This document shows, in pieces, positions 39,800 through 42,076 of a DNA stretch of 64,000 bases (the stretch's first letter is position 1; each line of letters opens with the position of its first letter). The stretch spans positions 5,127 through 69,126 of the IMG/VR virus record IMGVR_UViG_3300008120_000440; one strand, 5' to 3'. The notes under the pieces are model-generated. The model saw only the letters and a list, made by a program, of their open reading frames with translations, made no database searches and had not been told where the DNA came from. The stretch is from a virus. The position numbers were made by a program, and so were the translations under genes.

Positions 39800-40339
39800 T
39801 TATTTGCCCTTTTCTAGTGCACTGAATAGTGGCTCCCAATCTATCTTGGTCAGTGCAGAAAGTTGTTCATCCGACCACTTATATTGAGACTCTCCAAGCC
39901 TGGCTAAAACCATTTGCTCAAGGACCCACGCATCACACACATCGTCTGCAGATGGGCCAGTAAAACTAATTCCAGATATTGCAAATACTGAAAACAAAAC
40001 TTCTTTTTTCCCAGCGTTTCCTTTCCCAGTAGCAAATTTTGCACGGCATGTTGGCGGAACATCAATGATTGGGAATCCGTGTTTAGTCAGGAGGGATTTG
40101 ACCACGCCGCCAAGTTCTCCTATTGCATGTGCTCTACTGAACTTTGAGCCAAATGAGTACCCCTCTATTAGAATTGCGGCTGGTCTGGTTGAAGAAGCGA
40201 TTTCAAGTATTTTTTCTGAAATCTCAATCAGGCGAGCAGTCCCTTTTTGCTTTGACGCAATAGCAACATATTCCCCACCAACGCACACGCCAGTAGATGT
40301 AAGGGATAGGTCAATCCCCATGAATCTTAAATCGCTCAT
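39800..40339 (-). CDS. ruvC: RuvC-like Holliday junction resolvase
   Basis: GIDLSLTSTG, LIEGYSF, ELGGVV, ATGKGNAGK, DDVCDA. Confidence 0.88.
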   Translation of the reverse strand: MSDLRFMGIDLSLTSTGVCVGGEYVAIASKQKGTARLIEISEKILEIASSTRPAAILIEGYSFGSKFSRAHAIGELGGVVKSLLTKHGFPIIDVPPTCRAKFATGKGNAGKKEVLFSVFAISGISFTGPSADDVCDAWVLEQMVLARLGESQYKWSDEQLSALTKIDWEPLFSALEKGK

Positions 40340-40376
40340 GCGACGAGACTACTACGCAAACCCAATAAATACGGGT

Positions 40377-40448
40377 AAAAAATAATAGACGCAAGGACAG
40401 GGTAAGTCTCCCTACCCTGCCCTCGCGCCTATAACGGTCCTAAGGATT
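40377..40448 (-). ncRNA. Candidate sRNA / structured 3' element: 17 nt antisense to 23S rRNA followed by 22-bp GAGA-capped stem and U tract
   Basis: CCTTAGGACCGTTATAG then stem ATAGGCGCGAGGGCAGGGTAGG-GAGA-CTTACCCTGTCCTTGCGTCTAT with four G-U pairs, then TATTTTTT. Confidence 0.6.
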
Positions 40449-40457
40449 ACTAGTTTA

Positions 40458-40763
40458 CTACCGTTCCCATCCGTGCCTTGCAAGTCCTAAATCAAATGCA
40501 AGTTGTGGATAATTTCCAATCCTGTTGTGACACGGCCTGCACACGGCGAGCAAGTTTTCTTCATCCAAAATTGAACCACCCTGCGAGCGTCTCACTAGTT
40601 CGTGAATATCAACAGAGCGATTTTGATTGAACAAAGTTTTTTCGTCATACTTCGCAAACACTTTGCACGCTTGACAGTACGGATATTTTTCCAGCAAAGC
40701 CTTAACCAATGGTCTGCGAAGTTCGTACTCCGCTTCCTTCTTTTTGCTTCGCTTGCGAATCAT
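40458..40763 (-). CDS. Small HNH endonuclease
   Basis: CQAC...DIHELVRRSQGG...NLLAVCRPCH. Confidence 0.85.
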   Translation of the reverse strand: MIRKRSKKKEAEYELRRPLVKALLEKYPYCQACKVFAKYDEKTLFNQNRSVDIHELVRRSQGGSILDEENLLAVCRPCHNRIGNYPQLAFDLGLARHGWER

Positions 40764-41287
40764 CAGATTCCGTCTATTGATTCAAATGTCCAACGATTGT
40801 CAAGAGCGTCCCAAAGCGCTCTGTCAATTGCCGTCTCTTCAAGGTCATACTCATCAAGAAGGTTTTTATGCTTAATGATTGCTTTCCTATAGAAGTCGGC
40901 CTGAGCGGCATCATTCTGTGCAGCAACCTTGATGTGGTCGTCGCTTCCAGTGTCAATCAACTTAGTCACTTCATCAAGACGCCTATTCACATGGAACATA
41001 AATCGCTCAATCTTTGTCCTGCGTAGTGAATATGCAAGTTCGGCTTCCTCGGCAAGAACTACACCGTCTTCGCCAAGTGCTTCGTAGCGCTCTTTATCTG
41101 CTTCTGCATCGGCATTTATGTCGTCAACTTGAGACTGAAGATTGTCAATAAGAAGCAAAAGCGCTTTTTGCCACCTAGCCCAATTTCTAGGCTCTAACAA
41201 AATTTTCCGTTGTTGCGATGAAATTTTGTTTTTCACATCCTCCGATACGAGGCGTGCAAATGCGTCGTCGTTTAATAGTGAACTCAT
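40763..41287 (-). CDS. Hypothetical helical protein
   Basis: 174-aa ORF coupled to HNH gene. Confidence 0.7.
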   Translation of the reverse strand: MSSLLNDDAFARLVSEDVKNKISSQQRKILLEPRNWARWQKALLLLIDNLQSQVDDINADAEADKERYEALGEDGVVLAEEAELAYSLRRTKIERFMFHVNRRLDEVTKLIDTGSDDHIKVAAQNDAAQADFYRKAIIKHKNLLDEYDLEETAIDRALWDALDNRWTFESIDGI

Positions 41288-41293
41288 ACTAAA

Positions 41294-42076
41294 TTACTTT
41301 CTACTCCATGCTGGACAAATTGATTTGTATGAACAATAATCGCACAACTTTGATTTTATTGGTTCAAATGAACCAGTTACACACCGCTCATCAATTCGTT
41401 GTTTGATTCCAACCACTCTCTCAACCGTATTTTGTAGTGTCTCGTCTGTGACAATCTCCGTGAATTTAACGCCATCTTTGAGGTACAAAAGTTCTAACTT
41501 TGATGCTTTAAACAATGATGAAATATTCATCAGTGCTGCATAAATGCGCAACTGTTCAAACTTTCCAGAAACCCAGTTTTTGTTTGGAGTTTTGCCAGTC
41601 TTGTAATCCGAAATAACTAATCCGCCATCAGCGTCATTGCTAAATCTGTCAATAAAACCTTTCAGTGTTACGCCACCTAAAGAATCATTTAGTTCGTGTT
41701 CAATCCCAGCGGGAACCACTTTTGACGGGTCTTCAATTAGCCATAGGTTCTCAATACAAAACCATGACTGCCAGCGAATCTTTTTTATTTCGTCAGCACG
41801 ACGGACAACAACTGCAATCTTGTCGCCCCACTCTTTGTTCCAGCACTCTGCAGCAAGGAATCTCGCTGACTGAAGAGTTCTATCGTTTGGTGGCAATTTG
41901 TAAAACAGTTCCAAGACATCGTGGACAAAGTTCCCCATCAGCGCCTCTTTGCCAGACTCATCTGGAATGTTGTCTATCTTCCCGTACTTAAACTTGAGCG
42001 GACATTGCTCAAATGTCGCCAAAGAGGACGGAGAAAGATGCGCTGGTGGTTGTAAGTCCTTATTTTCCAGATTCAA
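41294..42076 (-). CDS. RecB/Cas4-like PD-(D/E)XK exonuclease
   Basis: LSPSS...CPLKF, GFIDR, DYKTG, QLRIYA, CDYCSYKSIC. Confidence 0.9.
   Translation of the reverse strand: MNLENKDLQPPAHLSPSSLATFEQCPLKFKYGKIDNIPDESGKEALMGNFVHDVLELFYKLPPNDRTLQSARFLAAECWNKEWGDKIAVVVRRADEIKKIRWQSWFCIENLWLIEDPSKVVPAGIEHELNDSLGGVTLKGFIDRFSNDADGGLVISDYKTGKTPNKNWVSGKFEQLRIYAALMNISSLFKASKLELLYLKDGVKFTEIVTDETLQNTVERVVGIKQRIDERCVTGSFEPIKSKLCDYCSYKSICPAWSRK

What the first reader, a model, noticed from the sequence alone, without database searches (positions are those of the whole stretch)
40377..40763. HNH nuclease followed by a candidate sRNA antisense to 23S rRNA helix 69: possible RNA-guided or ribosome-targeting system
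Seen: plus strand 40429-40445 is CTATAACGGTCCTAAGG, so the strand carrying the HNH gene reads CCTTAGGACCGTTATAG, starting 12 nt after the HNH stop and 6 nt after a TAAACT -10-like box. It runs into a 22-bp stem whose four non-Watson-Crick positions are all G-U on this strand, capped by a GAGA tetraloop and followed by a U tract. Established (from memory): this 17-mer equals E. coli 23S rRNA 1914-1930 (helix 69, intersubunit bridge B2a) and is the core of the I-CeuI site. Inference: a ~70-nt RNA whose 5' end could guide the 101-aa HNH to host rDNA/rRNA, block or remodel ribosomes, or act as a decoy. Caveats: my rough estimate for a chance 17-mer match to any rRNA position in 64 kb is a few percent, and many Actinomycetia carry AACCATCC at this site, so the host sequence matters.
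Basis: partly seen in the sequence, partly recalled or inferred. Interest (0 to 1): 0.88.

Follow-up and report, generated by a model that had tools for sequence, protein, structure and literature searches.

The report
Phage small RNA complementary to 23S helix 69
This lake phage carries a small, strongly conserved RNA gene whose free front end is the complement of a universally important loop region of bacterial large-subunit ribosomal RNA, but it is not tied to the neighbouring HNH nuclease and probably does not match its own actinobacterial host's ribosome perfectly.

Summary
The 17-mer, the 22-bp hairpin with four G-U pairs, the GAGA loop and the U tract are at the stated coordinates, and the 17-mer equals the reverse complement of E. 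coli 23S 1914-1930.

It is not chance.
- It is exact in 48 of 80 loci fetched through HNH relatives that are only 69-100% identical.
- It stands in at least 116 viral contigs, against 3 and 4 for two other universal rRNA 17-mers.
- Its hairpin covaries: 13 of 16 pairs change on both sides.
- A TAnnnT box lies 6-7 nt upstream.

So this is a real, uncatalogued small RNA gene of about 66 nt. It is one class of a wider set of phage RNAs that display the complement of helix 69.

The RNA-guided-HNH reading is not supported. The HNH abuts RuvC with no RNA in 11 distinct relatives, the RNA occurs in phages lacking this HNH, and the 5' segment never varies.

These phages are actinophages: 5 of 5 complete relatives carry WhiB genes. 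All actinobacterial 23S sequences I examined read CCATCC where the RNA needs CGGTCC. Pairing with the host would therefore be 8+7 bp, not 17.

This scan met the same RNA in at least nine other phage genomes. Function is untested.

The parts
40452..40457 (-). -10-like promoter box TAAACT, 6 nt before the 17-mer
   Evidence: In alignment A1, 42 of 46 rows have TAnnnT at this spacing. Two more (L089, L106) have it 7 nt upstream (rows). The two class-B rows lack it. This rests on consensus and conservation only; no transcription start was measured.
40429..40445 (-). Invariant 17-nt 5' segment CCTTAGGACCGTTATAG, the reverse complement of E. coli 23S 1914-1930 (helix 69 loop, its 3' strand, and the linker to helix 70)
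   Evidence: All 46 rows of A1 are identical here. It is unpaired in the consensus fold. The duplex with the E. coli site is -28 to -29 kcal/mol.
40385..40432 (-). 22-bp hairpin with GAGA loop; its first four pairs use the ATAG of the 17-mer. The family consensus helix of 16 bp starts at 40428.
   Evidence: 99.7% of 735 cells are paired and 13 of 16 pairs change on both sides. 0 of 500 shuffles reach this; slid controls pair 33-56% of cells. 166 of 735 cells are G-U or U-G, which fixes the strand.
40375..40384 (-). U-rich tail TATTTTTTAC; with the hairpin it forms an intrinsic-terminator-like 3' end, so the predicted RNA runs from 40445 to about 40377 (about 66 nt)
   Evidence: The tail is not a family constant: 15 of 46 rows have 6 or more T in the 10 nt after the stem.
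40458..40763 (-). Upstream neighbour: HNH endonuclease gene, 101 aa. It is not part of the RNA's mechanism as far as the evidence goes.
39800..40339 (-). Downstream neighbour: RuvC-like resolvase gene with its own TAGTCT box (40351-40346) 6 nt before the ATG, which makes it look leaderless
   Evidence: 37 of 61 distinct RuvC starts in relatives have TAnnnT 5-8 nt upstream, against 4.1% at random positions.

Best explanation
SHOWN. Window 40445 to about 40377 (- strand) holds a conserved, separately organised small RNA gene. It has a -10 box, a 17-nt unpaired and invariant 5' segment, and a covarying hairpin that in this phage also looks like an intrinsic terminator. It belongs to one lineage ('class A', in 140-170-kb actinophages, always between the HNH and RuvC genes of the recombination module) of a wider, uncatalogued set of phage RNAs. 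All of them display the complement of 23S rRNA around helix 69. In some the complement is a linear 5' end of 17-28 nt. In others it sits in the loop of a hairpin.

INFERRED. The RNA acts in trans by pairing with large-subunit rRNA at the helix 69 loop (1914-1920) and the 1923-1930 linker. The likeliest substrate is free 50S or newly made 23S, where helix 69 is exposed. Pairing there would interfere with bridge B2a, that is with subunit joining, recycling or late assembly.

In this actinophage the pairing is probably two short helices (8 + 7 bp, about -19 kcal/mol) and not a 17-bp duplex, because actinobacterial helix 69 differs at positions 1921-1922. The HNH gene is a neighbour, not a partner.
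For: Conservation independent of the rRNA match:
- The 17-mer is exact in 48 of 80 HNH-anchored loci and carries only C1-to-T in 3 more. That change still gives a U-G wobble with G1930.

Enrichment:
Over all loci held by then (those), 162 instances give 62 distinct flanks, and only 1 is a true 23S.
- Two other universal rRNA 17-mers occur in 3 and 4 stretches.

RNA and strand:
- The hairpin is supported by covariation.
- 166 of 735 cells are G-U or U-G.
- The promoter box is conserved.

The rRNA link is not an accident of one class:
- Other classes extend the complementarity to 20-28 nt. L141 reaches 28 nt with one C-to-T; L190 and L083 reach 23 nt.
- Cultured Vibrio phages such as PWH3a-P1 carry 24 nt antisense to 1907-1930. 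Both of their differences preserve a wobble pair.
- Hairpin-type RNAs ('class C') put the complement of the helix 69 loop in a 12-nt loop, and their stem changes are compensated inside the RNA itself.

Target and copy number:
- In E. coli rRNA the site is by far the best, at -29.2 against about -16 elsewhere.
- There is one copy per complete relative, and no other site with 3 or fewer mismatches in 5 of 5 genomes.
Against: Host mismatch:
- The lineage infects actinobacteria. 5 of 5 complete relatives carry 2-3 WhiB genes, and TerL, portal and PAPS-reductase all hit actinophages best.
- Both actinomycete 23S checked (Nonomuraea, Tsukamurella) read CTATAACCATCCTAAGG.
- So do actinobacterial 23S on low-GC contigs (flanks 48.5-51.5% GC) from metagenomes, although that scan required the variant.
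- Against Tsukamurella rRNA the helix 69 site scores only -19.3, with background near -16.

The seed has not adapted:
- The version matching actinobacteria occurs in only 2 viral contigs, neither sRNA-like.
- The two central C's that would mispair are nevertheless invariant in class A.

No direct evidence:
- No 5' or 3' end was measured and no binding was shown.
- From recall: m3-pseudouridine at 1915 in mature E. coli ribosomes cannot form a Watson-Crick pair.
Confidence: 0.5

Rival explanations
1. It is a real small RNA, but in this actinophage its working partner is not host 23S rRNA. The invariant 17 nt would then be held by another partner (an unidentified host RNA or a sequence-specific protein), and the rRNA complementarity would be inherited from relatives in phages of other hosts.
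For: Two central mismatches with every actinobacterial 23S examined. No seed adapted to the host. The two mispairing C's are invariant in class A. The helix 69 site in Tsukamurella rRNA is barely above background.
Against: No alternative target was found. The 5 complete relatives hold no other site with 3 or fewer mismatches. Pairing with the neighbouring second RNA does not covary. In all other classes the constraint follows 23S, through extensions and wobble-preserving changes. The two flanking sub-helices (8 and 7 bp) still match actinobacterial rRNA. The host itself is unknown.
Confidence: 0.25
2. It is a cis-acting punctuation module: a terminator for the HNH operon, plus a promoter and leader for the RuvC operon, with no trans function.
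For: It always lies between HNH and RuvC in class A. In the window it has a strong terminator-like hairpin. 31 of 46 family members lack a clear U tract, so read-through towards RuvC is possible.
Against: A terminator or leader does not need 17 invariant unpaired nucleotides that match rRNA. RuvC has its own -10 box at leaderless spacing (37 of 61 starts against 4.1% background). 11 distinct relatives do without the element. Related elements sit in quite different gene contexts: next to lysozyme, ribonucleotide reductase, a staphylococcal-type nuclease and tRNA clusters.
Confidence: 0.08
3. It is a DNA-level element: a captured piece of rDNA that serves as a homing-endonuclease or recombination site (the I-CeuI site core) next to nucleases.
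For: The 17-mer is the core of a known rDNA homing site (recalled, not tested). It sits between an HNH and a RuvC gene. A NUMOD3-containing gene lies about 0.8-1.4 kb from the element in L107 and L182.
Against: The constraints are strand-specific: 166 G-U or U-G cells would be A-C mismatches on the other strand. The differences from 23S that are seen are wobble-preserving transitions. The flanks of the homing site are not matched in class A. The HNH is a syntenic core gene and does not have the sporadic distribution of a mobile one.
Confidence: 0.05
4. One reading: the RNA's 5' end guides the 101-aa HNH to rDNA or rRNA.
For: Adjacency in the window, 12 nt after the stop. The layout of a 5' segment followed by a hairpin superficially resembles guide RNAs.
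Against: The HNH occurs without the RNA in 11 distinct relatives. The RNA occurs without this HNH in 25 loci. Up to 1.5 kb separates the two in some relatives. The 5' segment is never reprogrammed. The HNH is a bare 101-aa domain with no other Pfam match. No complex prediction was run.
Confidence: 0.03
5. A chance 17-mer beside an ordinary terminator.
For: 4 of 200 shuffles of the window reach a 17-nt rRNA match.
Against: Conservation, enrichment over control 17-mers, covariation and the promoter box.
Confidence: 0.02

Closest known systems
Trans-acting base-pairing small RNAs with a 5' seed and a terminator hairpin (RybB, OmrA/B type; named from my own knowledge)
   Same: Size of about 60-70 nt, own promoter, a conserved single-stranded 5' end followed by a stable hairpin, which in this window carries a U tract.
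   Different: The conserved complementarity is to ribosomal RNA, not to mRNAs. The seed is 17 nt and invariant. The genes are in phages. Chaperone dependence is unknown. Two thirds of the family lack a clear U tract.
Loop-presenting antisense RNAs that start pairing by a kissing contact (CopA/CopT, RNA I/RNA II; from my own knowledge)
   Same: Sister classes of this RNA (class C, and the Vibrio-phage form) place the complement of the helix 69 loop in a hairpin loop.
   Different: The window's own RNA presents the segment as a linear 5' end. The presumed target is a ribosomal hairpin, not a replication or toxin transcript.
Synthetic antisense oligomers against helix 69 (reviewed in PMC12828698; I saw only its search listing)
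   Same: The same target region of 23S rRNA.
   Different: Those are man-made. I found no natural phage or bacterial RNA of this kind in three literature searches or in Rfam 15.
Guide RNAs of RNA-guided nucleases with a 5' guide (IscB omega-RNA/HEARO, Cas9 guide; from my own knowledge)
   Same: A 5' targeting segment followed by structure, next to an HNH gene.
   Different: There is no large scaffold and no RuvC-HNH fusion protein. The 'guide' is invariant, and RNA and HNH occur without each other.

Membership tests
Seed-plus-terminator trans-acting sRNA | Own promoter and a discrete transcript | tested here: inconclusive
   A conserved TAnnnT lies 6-7 nt upstream in 44 of 44 class-A rows. The one RNA run that could be laid gave no cover of the element.
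Seed-plus-terminator trans-acting sRNA | Conserved single-stranded seed | tested here: met
   The 17 nt are invariant in 46 of 46 rows and unpaired in the consensus structure.
Seed-plus-terminator trans-acting sRNA | Intrinsic terminator at the 3' end | tested here: met
   Met in the window, but in only 15 of 46 family rows.
Seed-plus-terminator trans-acting sRNA | Regulates mRNAs through seed pairing | not testable with these tools
   The host genome is unknown. No complementary site was found in 5 complete phage relatives.
RNA-guided HNH/RuvC nucleases (IscB/Cas9-like) | Nuclease and RNA always co-occur | tested here: not met
   11 distinct relatives have HNH next to RuvC with no element. 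25 loci carry the element without this HNH.
RNA-guided HNH/RuvC nucleases (IscB/Cas9-like) | Variable guide on a constant scaffold | tested here: not met
   The guide is constant and the scaffold variable. The covariance model found no scaffold with another 5' segment in the 29 HNH loci without the 17-mer.
RNA-guided HNH/RuvC nucleases (IscB/Cas9-like) | Multidomain effector (RuvC with an inserted HNH, plus an RNA-binding part) | tested here: not met
   The HNH is 101 aa with a single Pfam domain. RuvC is a separate 179-aa resolvase-family protein.
Plain intrinsic terminator | GC-rich hairpin plus U tract, with no constraint on upstream sequence | tested here: not met
   Hairpin and tail are present, but the upstream 17 nt are invariant and the tail is dispensable in the family.
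rDNA homing-endonuclease site (I-CeuI type) | Full recognition site including flanks | tested here: not met
   Identity to 23S stops exactly at the 17-mer on both sides in the window. The length of the full site is recalled, not tested.
Any Rfam 15 family | Score at or above the gathering threshold | tested here: not met
   No hit in the window. Only chance-level hits at E above 1 on the element. None on 10 sister loci apart from tRNAs and one true 23S.

The most novel reading that the evidence does not exclude
Phages of several bacterial phyla encode small RNAs that dock onto helix 69 of the host's large ribosomal subunit, the RNA of intersubunit bridge B2a, and so take direct RNA-level control of ribosome joining, recycling or assembly. 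The actinophage version would work through two short helices on the universally conserved loop and linker. Some of its relatives carry beside it a second RNA with a stretch complementary to the 3' end of 16S rRNA. In phages whose genes look leaderless, that pair could shift translation away from Shine-Dalgarno-led host messages.
Probability: 0.35. Interest if true: 0.92.

Novelty: new variant of a known kind. Interest (0 to 1): 0.78.

Why it matters
No natural antisense RNA aimed at bacterial rRNA is on record in what I could search. Helix 69 is one of the most conserved and functionally central RNA elements of the ribosome. If phages really address it with RNA, that is a new route of host takeover and a natural precedent for antisense antibacterials. 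It would also be easy to test, because cultured Vibrio phages carry a version. The mismatch with actinobacterial helix 69 found here is a sharp test. Either short bipartite pairing suffices, or the accepted reading of this whole RNA class is wrong for actinophages.

Tried and rejected
Expression. One metatranscriptome run held a small share of the stretch. Its contigs covered only 40940-41375, inside the gene upstream of the HNH, and nothing on the element. This says nothing either way.

Second RNA. Relatives whose RuvC starts about 300 nt after the 17-mer carry a second structured non-coding element of about 170-200 nt. A profile of it found only weak hits inside a 1552-aa ORF of the window, so it is absent here. 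Pairing between the two RNAs was rejected because the candidate stretch varies while the 17-mer does not.

Other rRNA matches in the window: none above chance; the next longest is 14 nt.

Cultured relatives. No DNA match of the region or of the element in 50,697 phage records.

Host 23S.
- I tried to reach actinobacterial genomes of the genome library. A locus cannot serve as centre (error).
- A WhiB search returned only phage proteins.
- I used two actinomycete records of the plasmid collection and one metagenome scan instead.
- The true host remains unidentified.
- The position of the FISH probe HGC69a on helix 69 is recalled. The papers I read (passages of PMC2810431 and PMC6194029) show only that it is used for freshwater Actinobacteria. 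Its sequence is in a supplementary table that I could not open.

WhiB was not found in the window's own record, which is 48% complete.

No structure or complex prediction was run for the HNH.

Full report
WHAT IS THERE. On the - strand the HNH gene (40763-40458, 101 aa) ends in TAG. It is followed by TAAACT, by six bases, and then by CCTTAGGACCGTTATAG at 40445-40429. This 17-mer is the exact reverse complement of E. coli 23S rRNA 1914-1930 (on a locus fetched). Its last four bases open a 22-bp hairpin with a GAGA loop (-40.3 kcal/mol, z -6.1), and a U-rich tail follows.

IS IT CHANCE. Judged on this window alone, it might be. 4 of 200 shuffles of the window reach a 17-nt match to some E. coli rRNA position. 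Related sequences settle the matter.
- I fetched 80 viral loci through the HNH protein, not through the 17-mer.
- 48 of them carry the exact 17-mer downstream on the same strand. 3 carry it with only C1 changed to T. 29 have nothing like it.
- Their HNH proteins are only 69-100% identical, and the bases on either side of the 17-mer differ freely.
- Two other universally conserved rRNA 17-mers, from the sarcin-ricin loop and from 16S 1391-1407, gave 3 and 4 stretches.
- Over all loci held by then (those), 162 instances have 62 distinct flanks, and only one is a real 23S gene.

IT IS AN RNA, ON THE HNH STRAND. I aligned 46 distinct copies: 44 of this class, the window included, and 2 of a sister class.
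- A 16-bp consensus helix pairs 99.7% of 735 cells, and 13 of 16 pairs change on both sides.
- No shuffle of 500 reaches this. Sliding the partner strand pairs only 33-56% of cells.
- 166 of the 735 cells are G-U or U-G. They would be A-C on the other strand, so the strand is fixed.
- A TAnnnT box lies 6 nt upstream in 42 rows and 7 nt upstream in 2 more.
- The RuvC gene downstream has the same box at the same distance from its start codon (window 40351-40346; 37 of 61 distinct starts in relatives against 4.1% at random).

These phages therefore seem to use -10-only promoters with leaderless starts, and by analogy the RNA should begin at or next to the first C of the 17-mer. That is inference; no end was measured. 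Only 15 of 46 copies have a clear U tract, so the hairpin is kept for more than termination. Rfam 15 has no family for the element. Three full-text searches found no description of it.

THE HNH IS A NEIGHBOUR, NOT A PARTNER.
- In this class the element always lies between the HNH and a RuvC-like resolvase gene. The HNH, however, ends anywhere from 16 to 1455 nt upstream.
- 11 distinct relatives have the HNH directly against RuvC with no element.
- 25 loci carry the 17-mer without this HNH or RuvC. Their neighbours include a lysozyme, a ribonucleotide reductase, a staphylococcal-type nuclease and tRNA clusters.
- A covariance model built from the alignment found the element only where the 17-mer stands, and never with another 5' segment.
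- An invariant 'guide' on a variable scaffold is the opposite of a programmable system.

A WIDER SET OF PHAGE RNAS.
- Other classes extend the complementarity to 23S: 28 nt in L141 with one C-to-T, 23 nt in L190 and L083, 22 nt in L107 and L182.
- Cultured Vibrio phages (PWH3a-P1, qdvp001 and three others) carry 24 nt antisense to 1907-1930 on the gene strand, after a TGTAAGAAT box. Their two differences from perfect antisense, A-to-G opposite U and C-to-T opposite G, both keep a wobble pair.
- Scans that let the two central bases vary found 49 further instances. Most belong to a hairpin type.
- In that type CCUUAGGAnnGU pairs with a downstream segment of the same RNA, and changes in nn are compensated there. 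Its 12-nt loop carries the complement of the helix 69 loop.
- The shared core of all classes is therefore the complement of the helix 69 loop plus the 1923-1930 linker.

This scan has met the same RNA in at least nine other phage genomes. Those notes reached the same general reading and gave me the leads to the second RNA and to the loop-presenting forms.

THE HOST PROBLEM. The lineage infects actinobacteria.
- The terminase, portal and PAPS-reductase proteins find Gordonia, Brevibacterium, Streptomyces, Arthrobacter and Mycobacterium phages first.
- 5 of 5 complete relatives (140-169 kb) carry two or three WhiB genes. That family rang only in Corynebacterium among the 14 control genomes.

The 61 nt around helix 69 are 99% or more identical to E. 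coli in 598 of 642 rRNA-bearing records of the plasmid collection. The two actinomycetes among the listed rows are different. They read GGTGG...CCATC in the stem, which gives CTATAACCATCCTAAGG at the target.

Several of the stretches are actinobacterial 23S with the same large insertions as Tsukamurella, on contigs whose flanks have only 48.5-51.5% G+C. The variant therefore reaches low-GC actinobacteria, although that scan could only find the variant.

Against Tsukamurella rRNA the best site is still helix 69, but as 8 bp, a 2x2 internal loop and 7 bp. It scores -19.3 kcal/mol, against -29.2 for E. coli and about -16 for unrelated sites. The seed has not followed the host: the actinobacterial form of the 17-mer stands in only 2 viral contigs, neither sRNA-like. 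Earlier notes of this scan that say the RNA 'exactly complements' the host's rRNA in actinophages are therefore probably wrong on that point.

READING. A conserved small RNA gene is as good as shown. That it acts on 23S rRNA is the best available inference for the RNA class as a whole. The grounds are the enrichment, the extensions, the wobble-preserving changes and the loop presentation. For this actinophage it holds only if two short helices on the universal loop and linker suffice. I put that at about one half, and I give a quarter to a different, unknown partner. How it would act on the ribosome is conjecture from what is known of helix 69; blocking bridge B2a on free 50S, or pairing with nascent 23S, are the candidates. 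No experiment or read data bear on it. The one RNA run available did not cover the element.

Noticed in passing
L044:4912-5162, L029:4416-4643, L039 and L076 (between HNH and RuvC); absent from the window: Many relatives carry a second structured non-coding element of about 170-200 nt between the anti-23S RNA and RuvC. It has its own -10-like box, a closing helix (TCTAGCC...GGCTAGA), a terminator, and a conserved AGGTGGTCC or AGGTGATCC stretch complementary to the 3' end of 16S rRNA. L039 and L076 have it without the anti-23S RNA.
   Followed up: partly
L375:606-690, L349:2211-2295 and 40-odd further loci: A hairpin-type relative of the RNA ('class C') sits in large contigs without WhiB (0 of 5). 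The 5' stretch is paired inside the RNA, the complement of the helix 69 loop is in a 12-nt loop, and a GAAA-capped terminator follows.
   Followed up: partly
L222 (Vibrio phage PWH3a-P1, NC_020863.1 80887-80910) and four related cultured Vibrio phages: An unannotated intergenic stretch of 24 nt is antisense to 23S 1907-1930, with two wobble-preserving changes. This gives a cultured system in which the RNA class could be tested.
   Followed up: partly
window 40346-40351, and RuvC starts in relatives: RuvC and probably other genes look leaderless: TAnnnT lies 5-8 nt before the start codon in 37 of 61 distinct RuvC starts, against 4.1% background.
   Followed up: partly
L206, L211 (Myxococcus), L207, L209 (deltaproteobacterial MAGs), L199, L200, L203, L204, L210, L213: The 17-mer also stands outside rRNA genes in a few bacterial genomes. 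In four of them 4-6 further bases match antisense 23S. The context was not examined.
   Followed up: no
L107:10982-10998, L083:2624-2640: In two tRNA-rich phage contigs the antisense stretch lies on the strand opposite to the tRNA genes. A NUMOD3-containing gene lies nearby in L107 and L182.
   Followed up: no
L225:7686-7702, L226:12744-12760: Two unrelated viral contigs share CCTTAGGATGGTTATAGTATAGCA, the actinobacterial form of the 17-mer with the same following bases. No hairpin follows; its meaning is unknown.
   Followed up: no
hits H46-H50, H53, H57, H60: Staphylococcus, Arcanobacterium, Hafnia, Enterobacter and Pantoea phages have unannotated stretches of 23-31 nt that are 87-92% identical to 23S 1927-1960. 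Their E-values are near chance (2-5).
   Followed up: no
window 40760-40763: The HNH start codon overlaps the stop of the upstream 174-aa gene of unknown function (ATGA). This suggests coupled translation within the recombination module.
   Followed up: no
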